The translations under genes were made by a program, and so were the position numbers. Under the pieces are notes generated by a model, which worked only from the letters and a program-made list of their open reading frames with translations, had not been told where the DNA came from and searched no databases. A stretch of 44,042 nt of DNA from Patescibacteria group bacterium (GTDB taxonomy: Bacteria > Patescibacteriota > Patescibacteriia > Magasanikbacterales > GWA2-37-8). The number at the start of each line of letters is the position of its first letter. The stretch's first letter is position 1. Positions 1 to 40,667 of the stretch are shown in pieces. Location: assembly GCA_004321885.1 (NCBI GenBank), contig SCQK01000008.1, forward strand, positions 1 to 44,042, written 5' to 3'.

Positions 1-1299
1 TACAGTTTTTTTAATCAAATCAACCAAATTTGGGTGATAGTGTTCATATTGATTTTTTCCTTCTTTATTTAAATATATTTTAAACCACTCTGGATGGGAA
101 CTGCGATAGTAATCGGCCATGCCAGCAATTGTTTTGAATCCGGTGTTCATTTCTTTGGCCAACCCGCCGTTAGTCATCCATCCTTCCGGCGCTATTTCAC
201 CTCTTTCATCCGCTTTCTGTTTAATCAAATTTATCAAGTCATGGTGATAATGTTCTGATGGTCTTGCTTTTTTATCTAAGTATATTTTAAACCACTCTGG
301 ATGATATCGGCGATGAATTTGGGCTAAGGATCGTACGAAATTCCAACTTACCCCCAATAAAACAGCCACCCCACCATTAGTCATCCATCCTTCCGGCGCT
401 AATTCACCCCTTTCTTCTATATTTCTTTTTATTAGATTAATTAAATCTGGATGAAAATGCTCGTTTGGTTTATGTGCCTTGTCTAAGTATATTTTAAACC
501 ACTCTGGATGGGAACTGCGATAGTGATCGGCCATGTCAGCAATTGTTTTGCATCCGGTGTTCATTTCTTTGGCCACCTCCCTATTAGTCATCCATCCTTC
601 CGGCGCCAACTCCCTTTCTTCTATATTTCTTTTTATTAGATTAATTAAATCTGGATGAAAATGCTCGCGGGCGCTTTTACTGGATTTTTCTAAATACATT
701 TGAAACCATTCAGGATGAGAATGGCGATGTGGTGCTGCAAGTAATTTTATACTTGAATTACTAATATCTAATATTTCAGCTAATCCATTATTGGTTTTCC
801 AATCATCTGGTGCTGTGGTTCCCCTGTTAGATAGTGTCAGTTTTATTAAGTCGATTAAATTTGGATGGTAATGTTCGGTTGGCTTATTTGATTTGTCTAG
901 GTATGTTTTAAACCATTCTGGGTGCGAATTGCGATAAGCGTTTGCTAAATTATTGATTATTTTTCTTCCGGCTTTAAGTTCTCTCTCTAAACCAAAATTT
1001 GTAAACCAGCCGTTAGGAGGCTGTGGTACCCTTTTGTTTAGGTACTCTCTTATTAGATTTATCAGATTCGGATGTAAATATTCGTGTTTATTCTGTCTAT
1101 TTCCTAGATATATCTTAAACCATTCTGGGTGAGAATCGCGATAAGAATTAGCCGTTGACTCTATGAGATAGGAACTAACATTAAAAGATTTCGCCACCCC
1201 GTTATTAGTCATCCATCCTTCCGGAGCCCTTTCGGCTTTCTCTGTTTTTTCAATTGTTTGTACTACCGGTGTTATACCTCCTTCTGGTTTTCTATTCAT
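1..1299 (-). CDS. Partial (3' end beyond the window) tandem-repeat protein. It has at least 6 copies of a roughly 80-aa repeat (…APEGWMTNxGxAKxxN…YRxSHPEWFKIYLDKxxKPxEHxHPxLIxLIK…). Each repeat contains an HTH-like W-x-T-x-x-x-A motif.
   Basis: A minus-strand ATG at 1299 (the plus strand reads 'cat' at 1297-1299). The frame stays open to position 1. The roughly 240-bp DNA repeats are near-identical, for example 70-190 versus 490-600. The ORF track omitted it because it runs off the window edge. Confidence 0.5.
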   Translation of the reverse strand, partial: MNRKPEGGITPVVQTIEKTEKAERAPEGWMTNNGVAKSFNVSSYLIESTANSYRDSHPEWFKIYLGNRQNKHEYLHPNLINLIREYLNKRVPQPPNGWFTNFGLERELKAGRKIINNLANAYRNSHPEWFKTYLDKSNKPTEHYHPNLIDLIKLTLSNRGTTAPDDWKTNNGLAEILDISNSSIKLLAAPHRHSHPEWFQMYLEKSSKSAREHFHPDLINLIKRNIEERELAPEGWMTNREVAKEMNTGCKTIADMADHYRSSHPEWFKIYLDKAHKPNEHFHPDLINLIKRNIEERGELAPEGWMTNGGVAVLLGVSWNFVRSLAQIHRRYHPEWFKIYLDKKARPSEHYHHDLINLIKQKADERGEIAPEGWMTNGGLAKEMNTGFKTIAGMADYYRSSHPEWFKIYLNKEGKNQYEHYHPNLVDLIKKTV

Positions 1300-1927: not shown

Positions 1928-1964
1928 AGGGATTCCTCCCCGCCCTGGGCGGGTCGGAATGACA
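1928..1964. repeat. P6-family element (gggattcYtccccgcccYgggcRggtcRgaatgaca).
   Basis: A near-identical copy at 3108-3143 and an inverted partial copy at 28543-28578. Confidence 0.6.
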
Positions 1965-1970
1965 AAACCT

Positions 1971-2005
1971 CACCCCCTGCCCCTCCCCTTATAGGGGAGG
2001 GTGCG
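1971..2005. repeat. P1 palindromic element (CCCTCCCC-TTATA-GGGGAGGG with one extended arm).
   Basis: One of about 16 copies of this family in the window. Confidence 0.7.
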
Positions 2006-2006
2006 A

Positions 2007-2777
2007 TTAAACCCTCGGCGGGAGGTTTTCTTTATTCAAGAATTTTTTGATGTCGTCTATCGTACTCATGAATTGCGCCGGGAAGATGATGGTGGAATTT
2101 TTTTCAATGCTGATTTCCGCCATGGTCTGCAAGTTGCGCAGTTGCAGGGCGATGGGGTGGGCCATCATCACGTCGGCGGTATCGGCCAGTTTTTGCGAGG
2201 CCAGGAATTCGCCCTCGGCCGCGATGATTTTGGCGCGCTTTTCCCGTTCGGCTTCGGCCTGTTTGGCCATGGCCCTTTGCATGCCCTCGGGCAGTTCAAT
2301 ATCTTTTATTTCCACCACGGCCACGACCACGCCCCAGGCCTCGGTGTGCGCGTCCAACACCTTGGCGATTTCTTTGTTGATGGTTTCGCGCTCGCTTAGT
2401 ATTTCGTCCAATTGAAATTTGCCCACGATGTTTCGCACCGAGGTTTGCGCGATTTGGTTGATGGCCGACATTACGTTTTCAATGGCCACGATGCTTTTGA
2501 TGGAGTCCACAATTTTATAATAAGCCACGGCCGACACGTCCACGGACACGTTGTCTTTGGTAATAATTTTCTGCGGCGGAATGGGCAGGGTAACGGTGCG
2601 AAAATCCACCTTGCGCATCTGTTCAATAATTGGAATAATCCAGCTTAAGCCGGGTTCTTTGACGCGCACGATTTTACCCAGGCGGAAAACCACGCCTTTT
2701 TGGTATTGCTGGACAATGCGCAGGCCCCAGAAAATGACGATGACCGCGATGACTATAATCCACCATGTTAGCGACAT
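2007..2777 (-). CDS. SPFH/band-7 (stomatin/HflC-like) membrane protein of about 256 aa.
   Basis: N-terminal TM (MSLTWWIIVIAVIVIFWGL), then a typical SPFH body and coiled-coil (…EREKRAKIIAAEGE…). The start is set at the internal ATG at 2775-2777. The upstream extension consists of repeat DNA. Confidence 0.8.
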   Translation of the reverse strand: MSLTWWIIVIAVIVIFWGLRIVQQYQKGVVFRLGKIVRVKEPGLSWIIPIIEQMRKVDFRTVTLPIPPQKIITKDNVSVDVSAVAYYKIVDSIKSIVAIENVMSAINQIAQTSVRNIVGKFQLDEILSERETINKEIAKVLDAHTEAWGVVVAVVEIKDIELPEGMQRAMAKQAEAEREKRAKIIAAEGEFLASQKLADTADVMMAHPIALQLRNLQTMAEISIEKNSTIIFPAQFMSTIDDIKKFLNKENLPPRV

Positions 2778-2886: not shown

Positions 2887-2914
2887 TTGCGTGAAAAAAA
2901 ATATCTGCTATAAT
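2887..2914 (+). promoter_or_regulatory. Sigma70-like promoter: TTGCGT, a 16-nt spacer, TATAAT.
   Basis: -35 element at 2887-2892 and a consensus -10 at 2909-2914. It would drive the DUF4430 / surface-protein operon. Confidence 0.45.
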
Positions 2915-3101
2915 GCACTGGCGACAATTCAAGTGTATTTGTGGAAGTGAGGTATCGGGCTTTTGGCCCTTAATTCCTCCACTGTGCCGCAACGGTAATG
3001 GTCGCCTTCGGCGACCGAGTCCGGTCTTCAAATATACTAAATCTCCCGAGCAGGAAATATTGTTTTCGCGTCAATTTCTGCTCGGCAGAAATTTTTTTGT
3101 T

Positions 3102-3716
3102 ATGAAAGGGATTCTTCCCCGCCCCGGGCAGGTCAGAATGACAATCGGGATGTTGATTTTGCTGATTTTAATCGCGATAGCGAGCGGGGTGTGGTTGTTG
3201 TTGGCAGAACAGAAAGATGCGAATACCCCTCTCTCTGTCTCTCCCCTAAAGGGGGAGAGAAGTTTGGATGCCTCTCCCCCTCCTGACATTCAGGCTCCAC
3301 AGCCCCGACGTAAAGTCGGGGACTATGGAGCCAGCCTCGTTACCCCTCCCCAACCCTCCTCCCGAAACAAGTTCGGGACAAGCTCTTATAAAGTGGAGGG
3401 TACGGCCACGAGCGCGCCGGTCGTTGGCGCGAAAATGCTCATCGGCGGGCAAGAGTTTATTTTTTCCGTCCCCGCGGGCGCCACGGTTTATGACGCCATG
3501 AAACAGCTGGCGGATGAGAAAAAAATATTTTTCAGCGGCAAAGAATACGCGGGCATGGGATTTTTTGCGGAAGAAATAAACGGCTTGCAAAACGGTGACG
3601 GCGGCAAGTATTGGATTTATTATGTCAACGGCCAGCAGGCAAAAGTAGGAGTCTCAAGTTATTTAATTAAATCAAGTGACATAATTTCTTGGGTGTATGA
3701 AAACGAAAAATTTTAG
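3102..3716 (+). CDS. DUF4430-like (transcobalamin-like C-terminal domain) membrane-anchored protein. The start is ambiguous among ATGs at 3102, 3138 and 3150.
   Basis: N-terminal TM (MLILLILIAIASGVWLLLA). The C-terminus (GKYWIYYVNGQQAKVGVSSYLIKSSDIISWVYE) matches the DUF4430 pattern. The linker contains two in-frame palindromic elements. The ATG at 3138 lies inside a P6 element. Confidence 0.55.
   Translation: MKGILPRPGQVRMTIGMLILLILIAIASGVWLLLAEQKDANTPLSVSPLKGERSLDASPPPDIQAPQPRRKVGDYGASLVTPPQPSSRNKFGTSSYKVEGTATSAPVVGAKMLIGGQEFIFSVPAGATVYDAMKQLADEKKIFFSGKEYAGMGFFAEEINGLQNGDGGKYWIYYVNGQQAKVGVSSYLIKSSDIISWVYENEKF
3108..3143. repeat. P6-family element; it overlaps the probable start codon.
   Basis: Compare the copy at 1928-1964. 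Confidence 0.6.
3226..3262. repeat. P1 palindromic element, in-frame inside the CDS (it encodes …PLSVSPLKGERS…).
   Basis: cccctctctctgtctctcccc-taaag-ggggagagaag. Confidence 0.65.
3295..3335. repeat. P2 hairpin element (gctccacagccccgac-gtaaa-gtcggggactatggagc), in-frame inside the CDS (it encodes …APQPRRKVGDYGAS…).
   Basis: A second copy lies at 40567-40606, intergenic. Confidence 0.65.
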
Positions 3717-5862
3717 AGGAGCAATTTTTGTCAACATCGTATTTTTTTTGGCAATAAGCGCGGCGGTTTTTTACGCGACGCCGGCGCAAGCGGATGAGGC
3801 GACCACTTCCACGCCCGCCTCCACCATTATCGTGCGCCATGAAAATCAAGTTGTGTTTAGCGGCTCTGCGCCCTTAGCCGCCACCATCTATCACGATGAC
3901 GTAAATAATATTGATTACACGTTGGCCACCGGCACGGTTTTTTCCGCCCTGGCGGCCGCGGACAATGCCAGCGCGGCCTTTGATATTACGGACGCGCAAT
4001 TTAATTCCGGCTTCAACAGTTTTTACGTGGCCTGCCTGGCCATCGCCAGCTCCACCAGCAGTACTGCGCCGCAAAATGCCTGCGCTAATTGGAACTATGT
4101 CGTGAACAATACTTACCCAAGCGTGGGCATGGATAAATATAATTTAAGCGGGGGCGAAACAGTATACGTGTATTTTTCCGATTCATGGAAAATTTCCGCT
4201 TCTACCAGCACCTTTCCGGCCAATACCACGACTACCCTGCAAACCTGGCGCTACCAATACGATAACACGGCCGAGCCCTGGGCGCCGGACGGCAATGACC
4301 TGATTGATATTTCCGTCAGCAATCCCTCGTCAACCGGCTGGTGGGACGCGACTATCACCGCTACCACCACACAAAGCAATGCCGGCGGCGCAGTTGATTT
4401 TAAGTTCGCGGCCACGGGCACATATTTCGCCAAAATCACATCGCTTGACTGGTCAAAATGGAGCAATCCCATCACCCTTTCCGTGTTGCCCGCTCTTGAA
4501 GTTGCGGCCGCAACCACCAGCGCCGAGCAAATCAACGCGGCAGTGGCGAAAGTTTTGAATTTTTTGAGAACAAAACAGGGCGCGGACGGCGCAATTGCGG
4601 ATTTGGGCACATCGGATTGGGCCGCCATGTCTTTTGCCGCGAGCAACACTTACGCGGCCGATGTCAAAAGCGCCGGCGCCTCGCTGGGAGAATTTTTAAG
4701 CGGCGCCGAAGCGACCACATCCACGGACCCGCTTAATATCTGCGCCGGCTATGCCCGGCACGCGCTGGGTTTGCTGGCCGCCGGAATTGATAAAAGCGAC
4801 GTCAAGATAGTTGAATTGAAAGACAAAATAAAAACCCGGTGTTATGCGGCCGGAATTGTGGGCAAAGCAGGCATCAACGATGATATTTTTATTTTGTTGG
4901 CCCTGCTGGCGGCCGATGAAAGCGTGGACAGCGAAATCGCGCAGGCCGCGCTAACGGCCGTCAAAACCGACCAGCAGGCAAGCGGCGCTTTTACCTGGAG
5001 CGGCTGGCCCGGCCAGGATGTAACCGGCGCGGCCATAAACGCGCTGAAATACGCGGCCGGCCGCGGCGCCGCAGTGGACGCGTCTGTGTTTGACAACGCG
5101 AAAAATTATTTGCGTTCCACCCAGTTGCCCGATGGCGGCTGGGGATTTGGCGCGGCCGACGCACTGACGACTGGCTGGGCGATGTATGGTCTAAACGCGC
5201 TGGGCGAAGGCCAAAGCCAATGGACAAACGCCCAGGGGAAAAATCCGTGGTCCGTGCTGGTCGGCACACTGGGCGCGGGCGGATATTATGAAACTGCCTG
5301 GAGCGCCGACGGCATTGATTGGTTTGCCACCAAGCACGCCGTGCCGGCCCTGCTGGGAAAATCATGGCCAGTTGTTTTGGCTCCGCGATATGTTGCCGCG
5401 CCTGCCTCGCCGGCAGTCGGCGGTTCTTCGCCGCCCGACGCGTCGCCTATAGACGCGCCGGTTTATTCCGTTCCGATTAGTTCATCTTTGCCCGGGATAG
5501 TTTCTTTCAGCGCCGTCACTGCCCCAAACAGCGCGGCCGCCGCGACTATTGTTGAAAGCGATAATGCCGCTATTTCGCCGCCAAACGCTCGCATCATCAA
5601 GTCGCTCAGGCAATTCGTCGCGTCTAAAAGCAAAGTGTTGCAAACCGCGGCCGGAATTAAAGCCGCCCCTGCCGGCGCCGCCAGCGAACAAAAAATCGCT
5701 TCACAAAAAATCGGTCGCCTAAGGCGACCGACTGCCATCGCGGAGGAAAAAAATCCCCGTGAAAATCCCCGCGCAAAAATTAAAGTTATATTTTACGCTT
5801 CGGCAATCGGCGTCGTGCTGGCCGGGCTATACCTGGGGCGTGGTCTGCTCGGGAAGGTTTGA
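3697..5862 (+). CDS. Secreted or surface protein of 721 aa with prenyltransferase/terpene-cyclase-type alpha-alpha toroid repeats and a C-terminal membrane anchor.
   Basis: Signal peptide (…ATPAQA). Repeated Q-x-x-DGGW / GWxxxGxxxAL motifs (QLPDGGWGFGAADALTTGWAMYGLNALG, QQASGAFTWSGWPG…). C-terminal TM (VIFYASAIGVVLAGLYL). It overlaps the DUF4430 gene by 20 nt, so the two form an operon. Confidence 0.7.
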   Translation: MKTKNFRGAIFVNIVFFLAISAAVFYATPAQADEATTSTPASTIIVRHENQVVFSGSAPLAATIYHDDVNNIDYTLATGTVFSALAAADNASAAFDITDAQFNSGFNSFYVACLAIASSTSSTAPQNACANWNYVVNNTYPSVGMDKYNLSGGETVYVYFSDSWKISASTSTFPANTTTTLQTWRYQYDNTAEPWAPDGNDLIDISVSNPSSTGWWDATITATTTQSNAGGAVDFKFAATGTYFAKITSLDWSKWSNPITLSVLPALEVAAATTSAEQINAAVAKVLNFLRTKQGADGAIADLGTSDWAAMSFAASNTYAADVKSAGASLGEFLSGAEATTSTDPLNICAGYARHALGLLAAGIDKSDVKIVELKDKIKTRCYAAGIVGKAGINDDIFILLALLAADESVDSEIAQAALTAVKTDQQASGAFTWSGWPGQDVTGAAINALKYAAGRGAAVDASVFDNAKNYLRSTQLPDGGWGFGAADALTTGWAMYGLNALGEGQSQWTNAQGKNPWSVLVGTLGAGGYYETAWSADGIDWFATKHAVPALLGKSWPVVLAPRYVAAPASPAVGGSSPPDASPIDAPVYSVPISSSLPGIVSFSAVTAPNSAAAATIVESDNAAISPPNARIIKSLRQFVASKSKVLQTAAGIKAAPAGAASEQKIASQKIGRLRRPTAIAEEKNPRENPRAKIKVIFYASAIGVVLAGLYLGRGLLGKV

Positions 5863-14888: not shown

Positions 14889-16142
14889 ATGCGCTACTCG
14901 CAACTTTTCGGGAAAACCAGTAAAACTGCGCCGGCCGACGCCGACAGCGTCAATGCCCAGCTCTTAACCAAGGGCGGGTTTATTGCCAAGCAGATGGCCG
15001 GTGTTTATAATTATCTGCCGTTGGGGCTTCGTGTTTTAACAAAAATTCAAAATATCATCCGTGAGGAGATGAACGCAATCGGCGGAAATGAAATACTGAT
15101 GCCCGCGTTGACGTTGGAAGAAAGTTATAAAGAAACCGGAAGAGACGTCGTCTTGGCCGATATACTTTTTAAGAGCGAAGGCCGTGATGGAAGCAAAATG
15201 GTTCTCAATCCAACCTGCGAAGAAGTAATTACGCCGCTGGTAAAAAAATTTGTCTTTTCCCATCGCGATTTGCCGCTGGCGGTCTACCAGATACAAAACA
15301 AGTTTCGCAACGAGCCGCGCGCCAAATCCGGTTTGCTTCGCGGGCGCGAATTCAACATGAAGGATTTGTATTCTTTTCATAAAGACGAAAATGATTTGAA
15401 TGAGTATTATGAAAAAGCCAAGCAAGCGTATTTTAATATCTACAATCGCGTGGGGTTGGGTGATATTACCGTCTTAACTTATGCTTCCGGCGGGGCTTTC
15501 AGCAAATACTCTCATGAGTTTCAAACTTTAACCGATATCGGCGAGGACACGATTTATTTGTGCGAGAAATGCAAAGTGGCCGTAAATAAAGAAATTATTG
15601 ACGAGCAAAAAGCCTGTCCTTCTTGCGGAAATAAAAAATTGATTGAACAAAAAGCTGTTGAAGTCGGTAATATCTTTAAATTGCGGACGAAGTTTTCCGA
15701 TGCTTTTTCATTTTATTATGCTGATGAAAACGGCAAGCAAAAAATAGTTGAAATGGGGACGTATGGTATTGGCCCGTCGCGACTGATGGGCGCGCTGGTG
15801 GAAGTTTTCCACGATGACAAGGGAATAATTTGGCCCGAAGCCGTGGCGCCGTATCAATATCATTTGCTCACTATCGGCAAAGAAGCTGAAGCGGCCAAAG
15901 CCGGCGAGAAGTTATACGCCGATTTGCTGAAAAAAGATACGGAAGTGTTGTATGACGACCGCGACGCTTCGCCCGGCGCCAAACTGGCAGACGCCGACCT
16001 GCTCGGCATCCCCACGCGTTTGGTAATATCAAAAAAGACATTAGAAAAAAATAGTGTGGAAGTGAAGAAAAGAAATGAGAAGGAAGCGAAATTGGTCGCG
16101 CTGTCTGTCATTGCGAGCGAAGCGAAGCAATCCCAAACTTAA
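14889..16142 (+). CDS. proS: Prolyl-tRNA synthetase, compact form of 417 aa with no editing insertion. It carries a Cys4 insert (CEKC…CPSC).
   Basis: N-terminus MRYSQLFGKT…, class II motifs. The last 14 codons are supplied by a P3 repeat element. Confidence 0.85.
   Translation: MRYSQLFGKTSKTAPADADSVNAQLLTKGGFIAKQMAGVYNYLPLGLRVLTKIQNIIREEMNAIGGNEILMPALTLEESYKETGRDVVLADILFKSEGRDGSKMVLNPTCEEVITPLVKKFVFSHRDLPLAVYQIQNKFRNEPRAKSGLLRGREFNMKDLYSFHKDENDLNEYYEKAKQAYFNIYNRVGLGDITVLTYASGGAFSKYSHEFQTLTDIGEDTIYLCEKCKVAVNKEIIDEQKACPSCGNKKLIEQKAVEVGNIFKLRTKFSDAFSFYYADENGKQKIVEMGTYGIGPSRLMGALVEVFHDDKGIIWPEAVAPYQYHLLTIGKEAEAAKAGEKLYADLLKKDTEVLYDDRDASPGAKLADADLLGIPTRLVISKKTLEKNSVEVKKRNEKEAKLVALSVIASEAKQSQT
16098..16137. 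repeat. P3-family half element (gtcattgcgagcgaagcgaagcaatccc) forming the 3' end of proS.
   Basis: It matches the left arms at 17556, 17650, 18522, 21402 and 40884. Confidence 0.65.
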
Positions 16143-17553: not shown

Positions 17554-17555
17554 CT

Positions 17556-17642
17556 GTCATTGCGAGCGAGTCGCAGACGAGCGCGGCAATCCCATTCGTG
17601 TTTGGGGTTGCTTCACTCCACTTCGTTCCGTTCGCAATGACA
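17556..17642. repeat. Complete P3 MITE-like palindrome (gtcattgcgag…cgcggcaatccc / ggggttgcttc…cgcaatgac).
   Basis: Solo copy with both arms present. Confidence 0.65.
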
Positions 17643-17649
17643 ATCGTCT

Positions 17650-18056
17650 GTCATTGCGAGGTCGCCTGCGGCGACCGAAGCAATCCCATACAATCAAGTA
17701 TGCCGAAACGCAAGCAGTATTATGTTTACATAATGACCAACAAGAATAATACTGTTTTGTATACCGGTGTTACCAACAGTTTAGTCCGTAGAGCCTACGA
17801 ACACAAAAGCAAGTTCAGTTTTTATGAAAGTTTTACAAAAAAATACAATATCAATAAACTCGTCTATTACGAATGTTTTGATAATGTGAATAACGCGATT
17901 ACCAGAGAAAAACAGATAAAAGCCGGTTCGCGAAAAAAGAAAATAGATCTAATCAATAAAATGAATCCTATTTGGCGGGATTTGTATGGAGAACTTTACC
18001 CTGATTAGGGATGGGATTGCTTCGTCGGTCGCCTGCGGCGACCTCCTCGCAATGAC
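17650..18056 (+). mobile_element. GIY-YIG nuclease gene enclosed by P3-type terminal inverted repeats: IR-L 17650-17687, CDS 17700-18008, IR-R 18013-18056.
   Basis: IR-L is gtcattgcgag-gtcgcctgcggcgac-cgaagcaatccc. IR-R is gggattgcttcg…gtcgcctgcggcgacc…ctcgcaatgac, its near-exact reverse complement, including the shared core gtcgcctgcggcgac. Confidence 0.5.
17700..18008 (+). CDS. Small GIY-YIG nuclease-superfamily protein (YhbQ/UPF0213-like, about 102 aa).
   Basis: YYVYIMTNKNNTVLYTGVTNSLVRRAYEH, the GIY-YIG core. The ORF-track start at 17598 lies inside repeat DNA; the ATG at 17700 is taken as the start. Confidence 0.7.
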   Translation: MPKRKQYYVYIMTNKNNTVLYTGVTNSLVRRAYEHKSKFSFYESFTKKYNINKLVYYECFDNVNNAITREKQIKAGSRKKKIDLINKMNPIWRDLYGELYPD

Positions 18057-18061
18057 AGTAA

Positions 18062-18611: not shown

Positions 18612-19625
18612 TTAAAGTCCTATTAAATTTCTAACCCCTTCCATTGTTTTGTCCGCCACCTTTTGCGCTTTGGCCGCGCCGTCTCTCATTATCTTGTCCA
18701 GCTTGGCCGGATTTTTTAACAGCTCGGCGCGTTTGGCGCGGAAATCGGCGAAATAATTGGCAATCGCTTTGGCCAATTCGTCTTTCAGCTCACCGTATCT
18801 TATTGTGCCGTCCTTTTCCGCTTTGACAAATCTTTCGTAGCTGGATTCCCCCGTACTTAGTCGGGGGAATGACAGACCGGATTCGAACTTTTGCAGGAGC
18901 ATCAACAGGTTTATCACCCCGGGCGCTTGGCCGCCGCCTTCGGTGGCCGTCACGGCGCGTTTGATTTTTTGTTCTATCACGCCCGGCTCGTCAGCCATCT
19001 CAATCACGTGGTCGGCGCCCAAACTTTTGCTCATTTTTTTATTGGGTTCCAGCAAGCTCATTACTTTGGGCGTTTCGGTGAGCAGATGTTTTGTTTCCGG
19101 AAAATACGCCCCGTATTTTTTATTGAACCAGCGAGCAATGTCGCGGGTCAGCTCTACGTGTTGGATTTGGTCTTGGCCCACCGGCACCATTTCGCCTTTG
19201 TACATTAATATATCCGCCGCCTGCAAAATCGGATAGGTAAAAAGTCCGGCCGTGGACATTTTAAGTTGCGCTGTTTTGTCTTTATATTGAGTCATGCGCT
19301 CCAGTTCGCTCATCGGGGTGAGACAGTTCAAAATCCAGGCCAGCTCGGCGTGGCCGGCGATACGCGATTGAAAATAAAAAGTCGTTTTCTTCGGGTCAAT
19401 GCCGGCGGCCAAAAGTTCAGCGGCCGTTGTCCGCGTTTGCGCGCGCAGTTCGTCGGGTGTCATTTTTCCAGAAAGCGAATGCAGGTCGGCGATAAAAATA
19501 TACATTTCATACTTGCCCGAGTTTTGTAAATCCACCCAATTTTTTACCGCGCCCAAATAATTGCCGATATGCAGGTTGCCCGTGGGCTGAATGCCCGAGA
19601 CGATGATGTGTTTGTGATTGGACAT
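18612..19625 (-). CDS. trpS: Tryptophanyl-tRNA synthetase.
   Basis: HIGNYLG (HIGH-class) and KMSKS motifs. An in-frame P2-type hairpin at 18848-18871 encodes …SFPRLSTGES…. Confidence 0.9.
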   Translation of the reverse strand: MSNHKHIIVSGIQPTGNLHIGNYLGAVKNWVDLQNSGKYEMYIFIADLHSLSGKMTPDELRAQTRTTAAELLAAGIDPKKTTFYFQSRIAGHAELAWILNCLTPMSELERMTQYKDKTAQLKMSTAGLFTYPILQAADILMYKGEMVPVGQDQIQHVELTRDIARWFNKKYGAYFPETKHLLTETPKVMSLLEPNKKMSKSLGADHVIEMADEPGVIEQKIKRAVTATEGGGQAPGVINLLMLLQKFESGLSFPRLSTGESSYERFVKAEKDGTIRYGELKDELAKAIANYFADFRAKRAELLKNPAKLDKIMRDGAAKAQKVADKTMEGVRNLIGL

Positions 19626-19664: not shown

Positions 19665-20135
19665 TTAGTAATGGTATTTACGTCCGCCGTTTATCATCAG
19701 CGCGCGGTAAATTTGCTCCAGCAAAAACACCCGGCACATTTGGTGCGTGAAAGTCAGGGGGGACAAAGAAAGCTCTAAATCGGCTTTTTGCCGGACGGAA
19801 GAATGTAGGCCGAGCGGTCCGCCGATAATAAAGGTGATATTTTTTCGCGTCTGTGTCTGGGAAAGCTGTTTTGCCAATTCGGTGGAAGAAAATTGTTTGC
19901 CGTGTTCGTCCAGGGCGATGATAAAATCATCCGTTTTCGGCAGGGCGTTTAAAATTTTGTCCGCTTCTTTTTGTTTTATCGTTTCCGGGCTGTCTTTTTC
20001 GCCAAAGGCCTCTTCTTTCAGTTCGCGGATTTCAATTTTCGTAAAAGGTTTCAACCGTTTTAAATATTCGGCTTCGGCCTCGCGCCAATACGATTCTTTC
20101 AGCTTGCCCAGGCAGATGATGTTAGTTTTTGGCAT
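19665..20135 (-). CDS. rlmH: 23S rRNA m3Psi1915 methyltransferase RlmH (SPOUT family).
   Basis: Collinear with RlmH (…IIGGPLGL…LTFTHQMCRVFLLEQIYRA…). Confidence 0.8.
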   Translation of the reverse strand: MPKTNIICLGKLKESYWREAEAEYLKRLKPFTKIEIRELKEEAFGEKDSPETIKQKEADKILNALPKTDDFIIALDEHGKQFSSTELAKQLSQTQTRKNITFIIGGPLGLHSSVRQKADLELSLSPLTFTHQMCRVFLLEQIYRALMINGGRKYHY

Positions 20136-21345
20136 ACGATTGCCATTCTTTTTTTAATTTCAAAAATTTGTCTTCGGCGATGGCCGCGCGGATTTGTTTC
20201 ATCAAATCCAAAAAGAAATGCAGATTGTGAATGGTGGCCAGGCGCATGGCCGAGAGCTCCCCGGCGTTAAAAAGATGGCGCAAGTAGGCGCGGGAATAAT
20301 GTTGGCAGGTGTGACAGGCGCAGTTTTTGTCTATCGGCTTGGCGTCGCTAGCGAACCGCGAGTTGGTGATGTTTATGCGATACCCCTCCCCAGCCCTCCC
20401 CTTATTAAGGGGAGGGAGAAAGAGCATGCCGTGGCGGGCCAAGCGGGTGGGGGCCACGCAGTCAAACATGTCTATGCCGCGTTCCACCACTTCAAAAATG
20501 TCCAAAGGCGACAGCCCCAGACCCATGCTGTAGTGGGGCTTGTCGGGCGGAAGCAGGGGGTAGACCCAATCCAAAATTTCTTTGGTCGCGGACATGTTGT
20601 AGCCGATAGATTCGCCGCCGACGGCGATGCCGTCAAAATCCATGGCGGAAATATGGCGCGCTGATTCTTCACGCAAGTCGCGGTGATTGGAGCCCTGGAC
20701 GATGCCGAAGAGATGTTGCCGATACCCCTCCCTCACCCTCCCCTTATAAAGGGGAGGGGATGATAGATGATATTCCAAACATCTTTTCGCCCATCTGTGC
20801 GTGCGTTCCATTGCTTCGCGCGCATACTTAGCATCAACATTGTCCGGCGCGCATTCGTCAAAGGCCATGATAATGTCCGCGTCCAGTTTGTGCTGGATTT
20901 TTATTGACGACTCGGGCGTGAAGCGATGCGTGGAGCCGTCTATGTGGCTTTTGAAGGTGACACCGTCCTTGTCTATTTTCGCCAAACGCTCTTTGCGAAA
21001 CTCCACCCCTTGTCCCTCCCCTAATAGGGGAGGAATTTGTTTGCCCAAACTGAAAACCTGGAATCCGCCGCTGTCGGTAAGCATTGGTCTGTCCCAATTC
21101 ATGAATTTGTGCAAGCCGCCCAGTTTGGCGACAATATCTTCGCCCGGGCGTAGATGCAAATGGTAAGTGTTTCCTAAAATTATTTGCGCGTTCAAATCGC
21201 GCAAATCAAAAGAATCCAGGGATTTTACGGTCGCTTGCGTGCCCACGGGCATGAAAGACGGTGTTTCAATGTCGCCGTGCTCGGTATGAATTACGCCCGT
21301 CCGCGCTCGGCTGTTTTTGTCTTGATGAAACGTTTCAAAAAACAT
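20122..21345 (-). CDS. tgt: Queuine tRNA-ribosyltransferase (tRNA-guanine transglycosylase). It carries three in-frame palindromic-element insertions.
   Basis: Full-length Tgt similarity including the zinc site CxCxxC…H (CACHTCQHYSRAYLRHL). The insertions encode [25 protein letters not shown] and PPLLGEGQG. Confidence 0.9.
   Translation of the reverse strand: MFFETFHQDKNSRARTGVIHTEHGDIETPSFMPVGTQATVKSLDSFDLRDLNAQIILGNTYHLHLRPGEDIVAKLGGLHKFMNWDRPMLTDSGGFQVFSLGKQIPPLLGEGQGVEFRKERLAKIDKDGVTFKSHIDGSTHRFTPESSIKIQHKLDADIIMAFDECAPDNVDAKYAREAMERTHRWAKRCLEYHLSSPPLYKGRVREGYRQHLFGIVQGSNHRDLREESARHISAMDFDGIAVGGESIGYNMSATKEILDWVYPLLPPDKPHYSMGLGLSPLDIFEVVERGIDMFDCVAPTRLARHGMLFLPPLNKGRAGEGYRINITNSRFASDAKPIDKNCACHTCQHYSRAYLRHLFNAGELSAMRLATIHNLHFFLDLMKQIRAAIAEDKFLKLKKEWQSYAKN
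20384..20421. repeat. P1 palindromic element, in-frame in tgt.
   Basis: cccctccccagccctcccc-ttattaa-ggggagggagaaag. Confidence 0.75.
20725..20770. repeat. P1 palindromic element, in-frame in tgt.
   Basis: cccctccctcaccctcccc-ttataaa-ggggagggga. Confidence 0.75.
21003..21034. repeat. P1 palindromic element, in-frame in tgt.
   Basis: ccctcccc-taata-ggggagg. Confidence 0.7.
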
Positions 21346-21494: not shown

Positions 21495-23711
21495 GTGTAT
21501 ATGATTGATTTTTCCAGCGACCTCAATGACGAACAATTAAATGTCGTTCTTAATGGCGACGGCCCGTGCTTGGTGTTGGCCGGAGCCGGCAGCGGCAAGA
21601 CGCGCGCCATTGTTTACCGTGCGGCTTATCTTTTGGAACAGGGCGTGAAGCCGGAAAATATTTTGCTCGTGACTTTTACCAACAAGGCGGCAGGGGAGAT
21701 GAAAGAAAGGGTGCGCGGACTCACCGGCAACGAGGGCTTGCCCTGGGCCGGTACTTTTCACAGCATCGGCAACAGAATACTGCGCCACCACGCCATGGCT
21801 TTGGGTTACATGTCCAATTTTACGATTTTGGATTCCGATGACAGCGAGTCATTGATAAAAATTTGCGCGAAAGACTCCCACCCCCCCTCAATCCCCCCCT
21901 CGGGCAGGGGGGGAGGATGGACCGGTGGTAAATTTCCCTCGGCCGGTAATTTGCAGGCGATAATCAGCTTTTCTCGCAACGCGGAAATGGCGCTTGCTGA
22001 AGTGTTGGAAACGCGCTGGCCCCAGTATGAGATGTGGGCCGACCCCCTGGCGGAAATCGCCAAGGAATACGAAAAAAGAAAATTACAGGCCAACGCCATG
22101 GATTTTGACGACTTGCTGGTGAACTTTTCGCGTTTGCTAAACGACCCGAAGATTTTGAAAAAATATTCCGGGCAGTTTCAATATATTCTGGTTGACGAGT
22201 ATCAGGATACGAATAAAATTCAGGCGTCCATCGTGAAAAAATTGGCCACCGAGCACGGAAATATTTTGGTCGTTGGCGACGACGCGCAAAGCATTTATTC
22301 TTTCCGCGCGGCCGACATAGAAAACATCTTGCGTTTTGAAAAAGATTTTCCCAAAGCGAAAATTTTCAAGCTGGAAACCAATTACCGCAGTAGCCAGGAA
22401 ATTTTGGACGTGGCCAACAACGTCATCGCCAACAATCCAAAACAGATAAAAAAGGAATTACATACCCCTCCCCAACCCTCCCCTTATAAAGGGGAGGGAG
22501 ATAGCGTTTCCTCCCCCTTTATAAGGGGGAGGTTAGGTGGGGGTGTCAAGCCCGAACTGCATCCGAAAATTGACCAAAGCGACGAGGCAAATTTCGTGGC
22601 CGAGAAAATCGCTTCGCTGATTCGCGGCGGAGTGGAACCGACCGAGCTGGCCGTGCTTTTCCGCGCGGCGCATCACAGCCAGCAATTGGAGCTTGAACTA
22701 ATGCGCATAGGCATTGATTACGATTATCGCGGCGGCCTGCGCTTTTTTGAACGCTCGCACGTGAAAGACGCCCTGGCCTACTTGCGCATACTGAACAATC
22801 TGGCCGACACGACCGCCTGGCTGCGCGTGCTTTTGTTTGAAGACGGCATCGGTCCGGTGGCGGCCGGCAAAATCGTGGATTATATAAGGAAGGTGGAAAA
22901 CGTGGAAGAAGTGGCCAAGGCCGGAGAGGTTTTGGGCGACAAAGCGCAGACGGGCTGGAATAATTTTTTACAAATTTGGAACAGCTTGCTGAATGTGGGG
23001 CCGGGCAGTCCGGCGCAACTGGTGGAGGCGATTTTGGCTTCGCCTTACCGCGATCGGCTGGAAGACGATTTTGGCAACGGCAACCAGCGGGCCGAAGATT
23101 TGAAACAGCTGGCGATTTTCGCGCGCAAATACGAAAAGCTGGATGACTTTTTATCCGAGGCGGCTTTGCAAGAGGCGTTTAGCATGCAGAGGAAAAAAGA
23201 AAGCGCCAGCAAAGCGCACGAGGGAAAAATTGTTCTTTCTACTATACATCAGGCCAAGGGGCTGGAGTGGTCCGGCGTGTTTGTGATTAATTTGCTGGAC
23301 GGGCAGTTTCCCAACGAACGCGCTTTGCGGGAAAACGGCGGGCTGGAAGAAGAGCGGCGCTTGTTTTATGTGGCGGTTACCCGCGCCAAAAAATATTTGT
23401 ATTTGTCGTATCCGCTGGCCGGCCCGGCCCGAGGCGGACAAAGCGGGGGCTGGGGAGACAGCGCGTCCGCGCCGAGCTCGTTTTTGGGTGAAATCAGTCC
23501 GGATTTGCTGGAAGATAGTTCGCTATTGCTTAAGCCGAGTTCGGTTTTTGATTTCTCTTCCCTTGCTAAGGGGAGAGATAGTGAGGGGTCGATCACATAC
23601 GTGGACGACCCGGATGCCGAGACCCGCCCCCACACCAAAGATTTTGGTGTGGGGGCCCGTCCCTTCCGCTTCAAACCCGGCAGTTTTTTGCGCGACGTGG
23701 GAGATTTATAA
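21495..23711 (+). CDS. uvrD: UvrD/PcrA/Rep-family ATP-dependent DNA helicase. It carries four in-frame palindromic-element insertions.
   Basis: Walker A GAGSGKT and helicase motifs across the length. The start is a GTG at 21495 or an ATG at 21501. Confidence 0.9.
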   Translation: MYMIDFSSDLNDEQLNVVLNGDGPCLVLAGAGSGKTRAIVYRAAYLLEQGVKPENILLVTFTNKAAGEMKERVRGLTGNEGLPWAGTFHSIGNRILRHHAMALGYMSNFTILDSDDSESLIKICAKDSHPPSIPPSGRGGGWTGGKFPSAGNLQAIISFSRNAEMALAEVLETRWPQYEMWADPLAEIAKEYEKRKLQANAMDFDDLLVNFSRLLNDPKILKKYSGQFQYILVDEYQDTNKIQASIVKKLATEHGNILVVGDDAQSIYSFRAADIENILRFEKDFPKAKIFKLETNYRSSQEILDVANNVIANNPKQIKKELHTPPQPSPYKGEGDSVSSPFIRGRLGGGVKPELHPKIDQSDEANFVAEKIASLIRGGVEPTELAVLFRAAHHSQQLELELMRIGIDYDYRGGLRFFERSHVKDALAYLRILNNLADTTAWLRVLLFEDGIGPVAAGKIVDYIRKVENVEEVAKAGEVLGDKAQTGWNNFLQIWNSLLNVGPGSPAQLVEAILASPYRDRLEDDFGNGNQRAEDLKQLAIFARKYEKLDDFLSEAALQEAFSMQRKKESASKAHEGKIVLSTIHQAKGLEWSGVFVINLLDGQFPNERALRENGGLEEERRLFYVAVTRAKKYLYLSYPLAGPARGGQSGGWGDSASAPSSFLGEISPDLLEDSSLLLKPSSVFDFSSLAKGRDSEGSITYVDDPDAETRPHTKDFGVGARPFRFKPGSFLRDVGDL
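21877..21920. repeat. P1-variant palindrome, in-frame in uvrD (it encodes SHPPSIPPSGRGGGW).
   Basis: cccaccccccctcaatcccccc-tcgggca-gggggggagg. Confidence 0.65.
22465..22545. repeat. Two tandem P1 elements in opposite orientation, in-frame in uvrD (they encode PSPYKGEGDSVSSPFIRGRLGGGV).
   Basis: Copy a at 22465-22502 and copy b at 22509-22545. Confidence 0.75.
23555..23590. repeat. P1 element (CTCTC variant), in-frame near the uvrD C-terminus (it encodes SLAKGRDSEGS).
   Basis: ctcttccc-ttgctaa-ggggagag…gagggg. Confidence 0.65.
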
Positions 23712-28289: not shown

Positions 28290-28444
28290 ATTATTGACAT
28301 TTTTTTAGCTGTATAAAGCCATTATAGCACACTTTTAGATATTTGTCAAGAGCAGATTGACATATTTAGGCATTTAGAATAGAAATTGGCTTGGCTAAAA
28401 TTAGCCAAAAAAGAAAAAATAAGGCGGAAAGTGAGGCGTACCCC

Positions 28445-28473
28445 TTGACATATTTTAAGATATATGCTATAAT
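28445..28473 (+). promoter_or_regulatory. Near-consensus sigma70 promoter: TTGACA, a 17-nt spacer, TATAAT.
   Basis: TTGACA at 28445-28450 and TATAAT at 28468-28473. A weaker TTGACA-type promoter lies at 28357-28385. Confidence 0.6.
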
Positions 28474-28479
28474 GCTCTG

Positions 28480-28691: not shown

Positions 28692-28734
28692 AGCGATGAG
28701 GCGAGCCGCTATAGCGGCAAGCCCATCCGGCTAA

Positions 28735-28752
28735 CGATCCGCCTTTGGCGGA
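28735..28752. repeat. P4 mini-hairpin (gATCCGCC-TTTGG-CGGAT).
   Basis: Further copies at 32303-32319 and 37217-37233. Confidence 0.5.
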
Positions 28753-32245: not shown

Positions 32246-32255
32246 TACTCGGTTG

Positions 32256-40457: not shown

Positions 40458-40606
40458 CCCCGACGTTACGTCGGGGTCATCCTGACCCTGCACCGCTCTG
40501 GTGCAGGGGAAGGATTCCTTTCTCATTCGCTGGCTCCATACTTTGTGTGGAGCCAGTTTGCGTTATGGCTCCACAGCCCCGACTTGGTCGGGGACTATGG
40601 AGCCAG
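40457..40606. repeat. Cluster of P2-type hairpins after fusA: gaccccgacgttacgtcggggtc (40457-40479), ctgcaccgctctggtgcagg, ctggctccatactttgtgtggagccag, and gctccacagccccgac-ttg-gtcggggactatggagc (40567-40606).
   Basis: Four consecutive inverted repeats. Confidence 0.55.
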
Positions 40607-40667
40607 CGGAGATTCGCGCGGCCGTTTTTTTTATCCACAATTTTATGGTGAAACAACGATAAAATTA

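What the first reader, a model, noticed from the sequence alone, without database searches (positions are those of the whole stretch)
3102..3716. The DUF4430-like gene has its start codon inside one repeat (P6) and two other repeats (P1, P2) translated in its linker
The P6 copy at 3108-3143 ends in …gaATGaca, giving the most plausible start (MTIGMLILL…, the TM anchor). The other P6 copy at 1928-1964 carries the same ATG. The linker between the TM anchor and the DUF4430 domain (PLSVSPLKGERS…APQPRRKVGDYGAS) is encoded by a P1 and a P2 element in-frame. The repeats therefore provide both translation-start context and spacer peptide.
Basis: seen in the sequence. Interest (0 to 1): 0.5.

Follow-up and report, generated by a model that had tools for sequence, protein, structure and literature searches.

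The report
Hairpin repeats translated inside a B12-binder gene
A small membrane-anchored vitamin-B12-binder-like gene of an uncultured Patescibacteria bacterium carries four copies of the genome's selfish hairpin repeats inside its reading frame, a known kind of event, and its start codon is most likely just upstream of the first repeat, not inside it.

Summary
The repeats are real. P6 (3108-3143) has a second copy at 1929-1964. P1 (3223-3262) belongs to a family of about 17 copies. P2 (3293-3335) has a twin at 40567-40607. All four lie in frame in one ORF.

The start-codon reading is not supported. A cobalamin riboswitch (2916-3086) and a terminator end at 3099. The ATG at 3102 follows at once, as in about 30 orthologues. 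This genome uses AT-rich leaders without Shine-Dalgarno sites, and 95 of 96 orthologue N-tails carry at least two Lys/Arg. Only a start at 3102 fits all this. P6 would then be translated as residues 3-14.

P6 is a TGTC-tagged palindromic repeat (REP) of the SRM type, the motif linked to the single-stranded-DNA nuclease SsnA. Its ATG is the complement of that tag. A single-domain GIY-YIG nuclease gene flanked by such repeats lies at 17700-18008.

The three linker elements encode a stretch predicted to be disordered, between the membrane anchor and a domain folded like the beta domain of transcobalamin. In the same window, hairpin repeats also sit in frame in tgt, uvrD, trpS and proS.

Verdict: a new member of a known kind, comparable to the Rickettsia palindromic elements (RPE).

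The parts
2906..2914 (+). Extended -10-like promoter box, TGcTATAAT. It overlaps the ATG at 2913 that NCBI uses as the start of its 267-aa CDS.
   Evidence: Read directly from the sequence. The 267-aa annotation is P0001. Promoter function is inferred only.
2916..3086 (+). Cobalamin (AdoCbl-type) riboswitch in the 5' leader of the gene.
   Evidence: Rfam RF01482, 38.6 bits, E = 1.5e-5, below the gathering score of 50. Orthologous loci have cobalamin riboswitches above the gathering score at the same place: L001 and 7 of 13 other loci.
3073..3099 (+). Terminator hairpin AATTTCTGC-TCG-GCAGAAATT followed by a T-run. An alternative longer pairing joins 3042-3056 with 3075-3089.
   Evidence: The same ATTCTGC..GCAGAAT hairpin plus T-run precedes the ATG in many orthologues.
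3102..3716 (+). CDS as proposed here, 204 aa: N-tail, membrane anchor, repeat-built linker and DUF4430 domain.
   Evidence: ORF. Pfam DUF4430, E = 1.8e-14. Start choice rests.
3108..3143 (-). P6, a TGTC-tagged REP of the SRM type; the tagged strand is the minus strand. It is read on the plus strand as residues 3-14, GILPRPGQVRMT, and contains the alternative ATG at 3138.
   Evidence: Family description in PMC3733652 and PMC11893778.
3144..3206 (+). Membrane anchor, I15-A35 (IGMLILLILIAIASGVWLLLA). It contains the alternative ATG at 3150.
   Evidence: Sequence. AlphaFold2 helix spans residues 8-39. All orthologues have an equivalent helix.
3207..3410 (+). Linker, residues 36-103, predicted disordered.
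   Evidence: pLDDT below 50 for residues 31-103 and no secondary structure for residues 40-103 apart from isolated bridges. Orthologue linkers are 2-95 residues, median 32.
3223..3262 (+). P1 element, encoding NTPLSVSPLKGERS, with a 9-bp perfect stem at 3238-3260.
3293..3335 (+). P2 element, encoding APQPRRKVGDYGAS. Its arms of 14 nt surround a 7-bp core stem.
3341..3383 (+). Third, composite element: the 5' half of P1 (TACCCCTCCCCAACCCTCC) plus a TCCCGAAACAAGTTCGGGA hairpin. It encodes VTPPQPSSRNKFGTS.
   Evidence: (family D2).
3420..3713 (+). DUF4430 domain with a transcobalamin beta-domain-like fold.
   Evidence: Pfam match to residues 126-200. AlphaFold2 pLDDT 88-92. Foldseek matches to transcobalamin, E = 3.5e-7, and to the human beta domain 5no0, target TM-score 0.82.
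1929..2007 (.). The second P6 copy (1929-1964), directly abutted by an intergenic P1 copy (1965-2007).
40567..40607 (.). The second full P2 copy, intergenic, downstream of fusA.
17700..18008 (+). Single-domain GIY-YIG nuclease gene (102 aa), flanked by three SRM-type repeats upstream (17555-17687) and one downstream (18013-18057). It is the candidate partner of the P6 family.
   Evidence: Pfam PF01541, E = 7e-14. Flanking repeats. More than 8000 homologues at 66-78% identity across phyla.
3697..5862 (+). Downstream operon partner (721 aa; weak matches to DUF4430 and to the squalene-hopene cyclase C-terminal fold). It also carries an in-frame hairpin, TCGGTCGCCTAAGGCGACCGA at 5711-5731 (IGRLRRPT), just before its C-terminal membrane helix.
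   Evidence: The same gene pair occurs in L001.

Best explanation
**What the locus is.** The locus encodes a small surface protein controlled by a cobalamin riboswitch. It has a short cytoplasmic tail, one membrane helix, a flexible linker and a domain folded like the cobalamin-binding beta domain of transcobalamin.

**What happened to it.** Four copies of the genome's short hairpin repeats sit in the two parts of the gene that tolerate extra residues.
- P6 lies directly after codon 2.
- P1, P2 and a composite P1-like element lie in the linker.
- They persist because each is in frame and free of stop codons there.

**Where translation starts.** Translation most likely starts at ATG 3102, the first ATG after the terminator. 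P6 is then translated as residues 3-14, and its two arginines help give the tail the positive charge typical of the family. The linker elements are translated into a Pro/Gly/Ser/Lys-rich disordered spacer.

**What the repeats are.** They are passengers, not devices built to supply a start site or a spacer. P6 belongs to the TGTC/CGTC-tagged REP class, now called Ssn-related motifs (SRM). A single-domain GIY-YIG gene of the kind that pairs with such motifs, flanked by them, lies 14 kb away.

**Shown:** the repeats, their families, their frame, the riboswitch and terminator, the orthologue architecture, the predicted disorder and the domain fold.

**Inferred:** the start at 3102, insertion as the origin of the elements, and their neutrality.
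For: **Repeats and families**

**5' region**
- Riboswitch and terminator.

**Start at 3102**
- The orthologue ATG follows the T-run by 0 bases in 19 of 96 cases, and by at most about 20 bases in most of those that have a T-run.
- 37 of 96 orthologues begin with MK.
- 95 of 96 orthologue N-tails have at least 2 Lys/Arg.
- Genes of this window have no Shine-Dalgarno site and have AT-rich leaders. The 20 bases before 3102 are 70% AT, against 20% before 3138.
- 3102 is unpaired in the predicted fold, while the U and G of the AUG at 3138 are paired.

**P6 family and its partner gene**
- The ATG in P6 is the complement of the TGTCAT tag and is present in all 18 copies.
- Family properties are described in PMC3733652 and PMC11893778.
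- The GIY-YIG gene is flanked by these repeats on both sides.

**In-frame repeats are common in this window**
- 9 of 17 P1 copies and 3 of 18 SRM copies are intragenic.
- Three P1 copies in Tgt align to gaps against solved Tgt structures.
- Insertions in UvrD align to gaps against PcrA.
- The C-terminal 11 residues of ProRS come from an SRM copy.

**Linker and domain**
- The linker is predicted disordered.
- The domain fold matches the transcobalamin beta domain.
- The nearest orthologue, P0002 (127 aa), has the same MK start, membrane helix and domain with only about a 10-residue linker.
Against: - No relative closer than 56% identity was found, so no empty site shows the insertions directly.
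- Three repeat copies (1925, 3104, 18567) share GAAA just before GGGATT. The G of ATG 3102 and the AAA codon could therefore themselves be element-derived. The pre-insertion start would then have been 3150.
- With a start at 3102 the N-tail is 14 residues, against 3-12 in almost all of the 96 orthologues.
- The stems of the in-gene copies are intact. An orthologue subclade keeps a linker hairpin through compensatory changes. Both facts also fit selection on the hairpins themselves.
- The first five codons of the linker P1 copy (NTPLS) also occur in the orthologue P0002, whose 12-kb locus has no P1-like hairpins.
- There are no expression data of any kind.
Confidence: 0.62

Rival explanations
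1. Translation starts at ATG 3138 inside P6, so the repeat donates the start codon and its context, and the protein begins MTIGMLILL.
For: - The ATG at 3138 is in frame and directly precedes the membrane helix.
- An AGG lies 5-8 bases upstream.
- The resulting 2-residue tail (MT) is closer in length to orthologue tails than the 14-residue tail from 3102.
Against: - The tail would have no Lys/Arg, against at least 2 in 95 of 96 orthologues.
- Its upstream 20 bases are 20% AT in a genome whose genes have AT-rich leaders without Shine-Dalgarno sites.
- The U and G of this AUG are paired in the predicted local structure.
- An accessible in-frame ATG lies 36 bases upstream, at the position conserved among orthologues.
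- The ATG is a built-in feature of every copy of the family. At 40946-40980 it is out of frame with the adjacent gene.
Confidence: 0.15
2. Translation starts at ATG 3150. P6 is then an ordinary extragenic REP that landed in the short leader between the terminator and the start. ATG 3102 would be an accidental junction codon: AT from the host plus GAAA from the element.
For: - GAAA precedes GGGATT in 3 of 18 copies, including the closest relative of this copy.
- Removing 3104-3143 leaves GTTAT|ATCGGGATG, with the ATG 10 bases after the T-run. That is within the orthologue range.
- PMC3733652 notes that many REPs apparently at ORF N-termini are probably extragenic.
Against: - The protein would start directly with the hydrophobic helix and have no charged tail. 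Only 1 of 96 orthologues lacks Lys/Arg.
- An accessible in-frame ATG at 3102 now exists upstream.
- ATG AAA (MK) is the commonest start in the family, 37 of 96.
Confidence: 0.12
3. The hairpins in the linker are kept because they act as nucleic-acid structures. They might slow ribosomes just after the signal-anchor has been made, protect the mRNA downstream of the riboswitch, or serve as sites for the GIY-YIG nuclease or for recombination. The peptide would be a by-product.
For: - Stems of the in-gene copies are intact.
- Hairpins with stems of at least 9 bp occur at 0.82 per kb in orthologue linkers, against 0.07 per kb in the domain and 0.24 per kb in the rest of the loci.
- In a subclade the linker hairpin CAGATAG..CTATCTG keeps pairing through double changes. 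The covariation score is 0.232 against 0.070 in shuffles, and 0 of 500 shuffles reach it.
Against: - The same elements sit in cytoplasmic enzymes (Tgt, UvrD, TrpRS, ProRS) and in intergenic DNA, so no linker-specific role is needed.
- Most orthologues have no linker hairpin.
- Palindromes can be kept perfect by template-switch correction or by conversion from other copies.
- The covariation test rests on 9 related sequences.
Confidence: 0.12
4. The resemblances are chance, arising from low-complexity Pro/Gly-rich coding sequence, and no repeats are involved.
For: The linker is compositionally biased, and short GC-rich palindromes can arise by chance.
Against: - P2 matches its twin exactly over 38 non-loop bases.
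- P6 shares 32 of 36 bases with its copy, including a compensatory pair.
- 0 of 100 shuffles give the P2 match.
- The window has about four times more hairpins than the controls.
Confidence: 0.01

Closest known systems
CGTC/TGTC-tagged REPs (Di Nocera et al. 2013, PMC3733652), also called NTS or Ssn-related motifs (SRM) and paired with the GIY-YIG single-stranded-DNA nuclease SsnA (Chenal et al. 2025, PMC11893778)
   Same: - P6 read on the minus strand is TGTCATTC..stem-loop..GAATCCC. It has the TGTC variant of the tag, a stem that starts with AT, and a short unpaired CCC tail.
- It is multi-copy and oriented.
- Copies flank a single-domain GIY-YIG gene of about 100 aa on both sides, the NTS-ssnA-NTS layout.
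- Copies inside genes and at ORF ends are described for this class.
   Different: - The cores here are longer and modular (28-45 nt elements with interchangeable inner hairpins such as GGTCGCCTGCGGCGACC). Only 1 of about 18 copies fits the published SRM search pattern, and P6 does not.
- The host is a Patescibacteria bacterium, a group not mentioned in either paper.
- Membership of the nuclease in family cd10448 and cleavage of these repeats were not tested.
Rickettsia palindromic elements (RPE), palindromic repeats inserted in frame into protein-coding genes
   Same: - Short palindromic repeats are translated within otherwise conserved proteins, at positions that align to gaps in homologues. 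Here that is seen in Tgt and UvrD and in the DUF4430 linker.
- Some RPE families are CGTC-tagged REPs according to PMC3733652.
   Different: - The elements here are shorter, 36-43 nt against about 100-150 nt for the classic RPE-1 (the latter figure is from my own knowledge).
- No sequence similarity to RPEs was tested.
- Several unrelated families (P1, P2, SRM) co-occupy one small gene.
- The host is not an intracellular alphaproteobacterium.
Classical GTAG-tagged REP/BIME elements mobilised by RAYT (REP-associated tyrosine transposase) enzymes
   Same: Small GC-rich stem-loops, high copy number, clusters in intergenic DNA close to gene ends, and compensatory changes in the stems.
   Different: - P1, P2 and P6 have no GTAG tag.
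- No RAYT or IS200-like gene was seen in the window, though only Pfam scans of selected ORFs were made.
- Half of the P1 copies are intragenic, whereas classical REPs are mostly extragenic.
Bacterial MITEs (Correia, ERIC, Nezha and similar)
   Same: Non-autonomous short repeats that can be co-transcribed and occasionally extend or fuse with ORFs.
   Different: No terminal inverted repeats separate from the hairpin itself, no target-site duplication at the P6 or P2 borders (read from the sequence), and a much smaller size.
DUF4430 and the beta domain of transcobalamin, intrinsic factor and haptocorrin; genes under cobalamin riboswitches
   Same: The host gene's domain matches Pfam DUF4430 and the transcobalamin beta-domain fold. 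The gene sits behind a cobalamin riboswitch, as in its orthologues.
   Different: The protein is a bacterial single-pass membrane-anchored form with no alpha domain. Binding of a corrinoid is inferred, not shown.

Membership tests
CGTC/TGTC-tagged REP, also called SRM (Ssn-related motif) | A (C/T)GTC tag at one end, followed by a stem whose first pairs are A-T | tested here: met
   The minus strand of 3108-3143 reads TGTCATTCTGACC...GGAAGAATCCC. All 18 family copies in the window share TGTCAT(T/C)(C/G) ... (G/C)(A/G)ATC(C/T)C, with small variations.
CGTC/TGTC-tagged REP, also called SRM (Ssn-related motif) | A short stem-loop (8-9 bp stem, 4-5 nt loop) and a short unpaired tail (consensus CCA) | tested here: inconclusive
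   A CCC tail is present. The arms here are 14 nt with an internal 2-nt mismatch and a 1-nt loop, longer than in the published families.
CGTC/TGTC-tagged REP, also called SRM (Ssn-related motif) | A match to the published degenerate SRM search pattern HGTCWYN(0-2)YYVSBRHN(0-5)WNVSBRGN(0-2)RNCYNB | tested here: not met
   Only 18841-18874 matches in the whole window. P6 does not, because its core is too long.
CGTC/TGTC-tagged REP, also called SRM (Ssn-related motif) | Many copies in the genome, with copies flanking a single-domain GIY-YIG (ssnA-like) gene on both sides | tested here: met
   There are 18 copies in 44 kb. The 102-aa GIY-YIG gene at 17700-18008 has three copies upstream and one downstream.
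CGTC/TGTC-tagged REP, also called SRM (Ssn-related motif) | The nuclease belongs to family cd10448 and cleaves the tagged strand as single-stranded DNA | not testable with these tools
   No CDD search or SsnA reference sequence was available. The best match among solved structures is a UPF0213 GIY-YIG protein, E = 0.005.
Intragenic palindromic elements (RPE-like) | The repeat lies inside a CDS in frame, without a stop codon, and the host protein remains otherwise intact | tested here: met
   The ORF 3102-3716 is continuous. The DUF4430 domain matches full length, Pfam positions 1-71 of 72. The domain model is confident.
Intragenic palindromic elements (RPE-like) | The repeat-encoded residues are an insertion relative to homologues that lack the element | tested here: inconclusive
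   Met for Tgt and UvrD in the same window. For the DUF4430 gene, only distant orthologues (at most 56% identity) with linkers of variable length are available.
Intragenic palindromic elements (RPE-like) | Sequence homology to the Rickettsia RPE families | not tested
   No RPE reference sequences were compared.
Cobalamin riboswitch (Rfam clan CL00101) | Covariance-model score at or above the family's gathering score | tested here: not met
   In the window: RF01482, 38.6 bits against a gathering score of 50, E = 1.5e-5, and nothing found at the gathering threshold. Orthologous loci pass: L001 RF01689, 40.2 bits against 36.5, and 7 of 13 other loci. The element is called a riboswitch here on synteny plus this sub-threshold match.
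DUF4430 (PF14478) | Pfam score above the gathering threshold, and a transcobalamin beta-domain-like fold | tested here: met
   54.4 bits against 23.8. Foldseek E = 3.5e-7 to transcobalamin, and target TM-score 0.82 to the isolated beta domain 5no0.
MITE | Terminal inverted repeats and a target-site duplication | tested here: not met
   No direct repeat at the borders of P6 (ATGAAA|...|ATCGGG) or P2 (ACATTCA|...|CTCGTT), read from the sequence.

The most novel reading that the evidence does not exclude
The stretch between the membrane anchor and the corrinoid-binding domain in this Patescibacteria protein family may be a recurrent landing site for hairpin repeats that is then maintained at the nucleic-acid level.

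- Different lineages carry different hairpin families at the same place.
- At least one subclade keeps its stem through compensatory changes.

This would mean one of two things. Either the hairpins have a role in expression, for example a translational pause after the signal anchor emerges. Or, more broadly, REP-like elements are a regular source of new linker and tail peptides in the small, gene-dense genomes of Patescibacteria.
Probability: 0.15. Interest if true: 0.6.

Novelty: new member of a known kind. Interest (0 to 1): 0.38.

Why it matters
**Practical consequences**
- The deposited annotation of this gene (267 aa, starting at 2913) reads through a promoter box and a riboswitch, so it is too long.
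- Gene callers will often misplace starts and ends in genomes full of such repeats. The repeat-encoded peptides will also seed spurious similarities between unrelated proteins.

**Biological point**
- An ultra-small, gene-dense genome still carries several families of selfish hairpin repeats, one of them with its likely GIY-YIG partner.
- About half of one family sits inside genes, including essential ones.
- This extends the Rickettsia-type phenomenon to Patescibacteria. It also offers a simple source of disordered linkers and tails.

**Limit**
- None of this changes what is known in principle about intragenic REPs.

Tried and rejected
- The Rfam scan of the whole window at gathering thresholds found only a tRNA. 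The riboswitch appeared only in a local E-value scan and through orthologues.
- The protein word-index search with the whole protein gave only itself and one orthologue. With the domain alone it gave no candidates.
- Scans of the genome and metagenome collections gave 53 and 80 loci, none above 56% identity.
- The published SRM pattern matched only one repeat copy.
- NCBIfam had no model for the DUF4430 or the GIY-YIG protein.
- A sequence search of solved structures with the domain found nothing meaningful. Only the fold search did.
- I looked for a second case of a start codon inside a repeat:
  - The long ORF of rpsG starts at an ATG inside a truncated P1 copy (37749), but the conserved S7 sequence starts 32 codons later.
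  - The ATG of the SRM copy at 40946-40980 is out of frame with the gene that follows.
- A MITE reading was rejected for lack of a target-site duplication.
- The simple promoter scan did not report the TGcTATAAT box because the -35 match is poor.
- The literature search found no paper describing such repeats in Patescibacteria. This is absence in the searched library only.
Full report
**Source and locus.**
The window is a contig of an uncultured Patescibacteria bacterium. The database holds the exact protein, annotated as a 267-aa DUF4430 protein starting at 2913. The ORF 2913-3716 contains in-frame ATGs at 3102, 3138 and 3150. Residues 126-200, counted from 3102, match Pfam DUF4430 (E = 1.8e-14). 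The next gene (3697-5862) has weak DUF4430 and squalene-hopene-cyclase-like matches. The nearest orthologue locus, L001, has the same gene pair.

**The repeats are real.**
- *P6.* It lies at 3108-3143, with a second copy at 1929-1964. The two share 32 of 36 bases, including a compensatory stem change.
- *The P6 family.* P6 is one of 18 elements in the window of the form GGGATT(G/C)C-hairpin-G(C/G)AATGACA. Their inner hairpins vary and are partly interchangeable.
- *P1.* The copy at 3223-3262 belongs to a family of about 17 copies with the consensus TACCCCTCCC..CCCTCCCCTTATAAAGGGGAGGG.
- *P2.* The copy at 3293-3335 has a twin at 40567-40607 that is identical apart from the loop.
It has the 5' half of P1, 19 bases identical to the copy in uvrD. 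This is followed by a hairpin related to the one at 37109-37136 by a C:G to T:A compensatory change.
- *Statistics.* The window has 99 perfect hairpins with stems of at least 7 bp, against 18-28 in Markov controls. The linker RNA folds into three hairpins, z = -4.05.

**What lies upstream.**
- A local Rfam scan finds an AdoCbl riboswitch at 2916-3086 (38.6 bits, E = 1.5e-5, below the gathering score).
- L001 has an AdoCbl-II riboswitch above the gathering score at the same place. So do 7 of 13 further orthologous loci, with cobalamin-clan riboswitches.
- A terminator hairpin and T-run end at 3099.
- A TGcTATAAT box lies at 2906-2914 and overlaps the annotated ATG at 2913.
- The annotated 267-aa start is therefore an over-extension through the promoter and leader.

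**Where translation starts.**
- In the roughly 30 orthologues examined by eye and the 96 distinct N-termini analysed, the ATG follows the terminator T-run closely (0 bases in 19 cases). After it come a Lys/Asn-rich tail and then the membrane helix.
- 37 of 96 orthologues start with MK, and 95 of 96 tails hold at least 2 Lys/Arg.
- In the window the sequence is ...AAATTTTTTTGTT ATG AAA, then P6, then ATC GGG ATG TTG...
- A start at 3102 gives MKGILPRPGQVRMTIG plus the helix, with three positive charges. Starts at 3138 or 3150 give none.
- Confidently identified genes of the window (tmk, folA, thyA, rplA, proS, trpS, tgt, rpsL, fusA) have AT-rich leaders and no Shine-Dalgarno motif. The leader of 3102 fits this pattern. 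Those of 3138 and 3150 are GC-rich.
- In the predicted RNA fold 3102 is unpaired and 3138 is partly paired.
- I therefore place the start at 3102 and read P6 as residues 3-14.
- Caveats:
  - GAAA precedes GGGATT in three copies, including this one and its nearest relative. The G of ATG 3102 and the AAA codon may therefore belong to the element.
  - The tail would be longer than in nearly all orthologues.
  - There are no expression data.

**What P6 is.**
- Read on the minus strand it is TGTCATTC-stem-loop-GAATCCC.
- This is the architecture of the CGTC/TGTC-tagged REPs of Di Nocera et al. (PMC3733652). That paper also reports such repeats within genes and at ORF N-termini, and cautions that the latter may be extragenic.
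- It is also the architecture of the NTS/SRM motifs of Chenal et al. (PMC11893778). Those motifs flank genes for the single-domain GIY-YIG nuclease SsnA, which cuts single-stranded DNA.
- The window has such a gene at 17700-18008 (Pfam GIY-YIG, E = 7e-14), with three repeats upstream and one downstream. It belongs to a very large family of about 95-aa proteins that are 66-78% identical across phyla.
- The published SRM search pattern fits only one copy in the window and not P6, because the cores here are longer.
- The ATG in P6 is the complement of the TGTCAT tag, so it is a property of the family, not of this gene.

**The linker.**
- AlphaFold2, run on a two-sequence alignment, gives the following picture:

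| Part of the protein | Residues | Prediction |
|---|---|---|
| Domain | 107-201 | pLDDT 88-92 |
| N-terminal helix | 8-39 | helix (DSSP) |
| Linker region | 31-103 | pLDDT below 50; no regular structure from residue 40 |

- The three elements encode residues 41-54, 65-78 and 80-94, all within the low-confidence stretch.
- The domain model matches transcobalamin (Foldseek E = 3.5e-7) and the isolated human beta domain (target TM-score 0.82), and also intrinsic factor and haptocorrin. Together with the riboswitch this suggests a surface corrinoid binder.
- Orthologue linkers range from 2 to 95 residues (median 32) without sequence conservation. The nearest orthologue has about 10 residues.
- The anchor and the domain can only be joined by translating through the elements.

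**Context in the same window.**
- In-frame repeats are common: 9 of 17 P1 copies and 3 of 18 SRM copies are intragenic.
- Three P1 copies in Tgt fall in gaps against solved Tgt structures.
- UvrD carries at least four hairpin elements. Two regions fall in gaps against PcrA.
- TrpRS carries an SRM copy, encoding LSFPRLSTGESS.
- ProRS ends with an SRM-encoded tail, SVIASEAKQSQT.
- The operon partner of the DUF4430 gene carries a GGTCGCC hairpin before its C-terminal helix.
- The same P1 frame gives TPPQPS in both UvrD and the DUF4430 linker.
- The DUF4430 gene is thus one, rather heavily loaded, example of a genome-wide habit. About 160 of its 612 coding bases are repeat-derived.

**Relatives.**
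- Several orthologues from other lineages carry their own, different hairpins in the same linker. One is a P1-like CCTCCCCCTTATTAAGGGGGAGG in L065.
- Hairpins with stems of at least 9 bp occur at 0.82 per kb in linkers, 0.07 per kb in the domain and 0.24 per kb elsewhere in the loci.
- In one subclade a CAGATAG..CTATCTG hairpin is kept through compensatory changes. Three pairs change on both sides, and the covariation score of 0.232 is reached by 0 of 500 shuffles. The set is only nine related sequences.
- This fits a permissive landing zone. It leaves open a role for the hairpins themselves.

**Verdict.**
The repeats do encode the spacer. The start codon is most likely upstream of P6, not inside it, and there is no sign that the repeats were recruited to provide start context.
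- The phenomenon is a known kind: intragenic REPs, Rickettsia palindromic elements and SRM repeats. Here it is seen in Patescibacteria.

Noticed in passing
window 17555-18057: A 102-aa single-domain GIY-YIG nuclease gene (17700-18008) is flanked by three TGTCATTGCGAG...GCAATCCC hairpin repeats upstream and one downstream. This is the NTS-ssnA-NTS layout described for SsnA. Homologues are 66-78% identical across Patescibacteria, Bacteroidota, cyanobacteria and other phyla, which suggests horizontal spread.
   Followed up: partly
window 20122-21345 (tgt, minus strand); 21495-23711 (uvrD); 18612-19625 (trpS); 14889-16142 (proS): Housekeeping genes carry hairpin repeats in frame. Tgt has three P1 copies ([35 protein letters not shown]) at gaps against solved structures. 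UvrD has at least four. TrpRS has one SRM copy. The last 11 residues of ProRS come from an SRM copy.
   Followed up: partly
window 2913-3101: The deposited annotation starts this CDS at 2913 (267 aa). That stretch holds a TGcTATAAT promoter-like box, a cobalamin riboswitch and a terminator, so the annotated N-terminal 63 residues are almost certainly not translated.
   Followed up: yes
window 3000-3016; L001 5878-5899: The peripheral hairpin of the riboswitch aptamer (GGTCGCCTTCGGCGACC) has the same sequence as the inner core of several SRM repeats in the window (13684, 17660, 18027, 18582). In L001 the equivalent riboswitch hairpin (TCCGACGTTAAGTCGGA) resembles the core of P2. Hairpin modules seem to be shared between repeats and a functional RNA.
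   Followed up: no
window 3222-3236 and L001 6079-6093: The first five codons of the linker P1 copy (NTPLS, AATACCCCTCTCTCT) also occur right after the membrane helix of the orthologue P0002 (NTPLS, AATACCCCCCTATCA). The 12-kb locus of that orthologue has no P1-like hairpins. This could be chance, or an ancestral motif that resembles the P1 flank.
   Followed up: partly
loci L029, L032, L035, L104, L105, L106, L126 (linker of the DUF4430 orthologue); also L058, L059, L075, L098; L065; L081: Other Patescibacteria lineages carry their own hairpins (stems of 10-17 bp) in the same linker between anchor and domain. One subclade keeps CAGATAG..CTATCTG through compensatory inner-stem changes, and L106 has three such hairpins in a row.
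   Followed up: partly
window 1929-2007: The other P6 copy is directly abutted by a P1 copy. In the DUF4430 gene the same two families lie in the same order but are separated by the 79 bases that encode the membrane helix.
   Followed up: no
window 65-1250: An AT-rich tandem array with a 207-nt period. Tandem Repeats Finder reports 2.9 copies at 71% match over 65-667. More diverged copies reach to about 1250. Its nature is unknown.
   Followed up: no
window 28290-30240 and 30550-36200: About 1.9 kb holds no long ORF but is dense in hairpins. It has a 49-nt direct repeat (29514 and 30037, 92% identical) and lies next to tRNA-Ser (30239-30314). It is followed by about 6 kb at 54-62% GC, against roughly 45-50% in most of the rest of the window, with many perfect hairpins inside ORFs. 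This may be an integrated foreign element or an unrecognised structured RNA region.
   Followed up: no
window 37723-37765 and 37749-37844: A truncated P1 copy between rpsL and rpsG supplies an upstream in-frame ATG. It lengthens the rpsG ORF by 32 codons, while the conserved S7 sequence starts at [11 protein letters not shown]. This is another likely trap for start-codon calling.
   Followed up: yes
window 40455-40607: A cluster of four different hairpins follows directly after the fusA stop codon, including the second P2 copy. The arrangement resembles the REP clusters known as BIMEs (bacterial interspersed mosaic elements).
   Followed up: no
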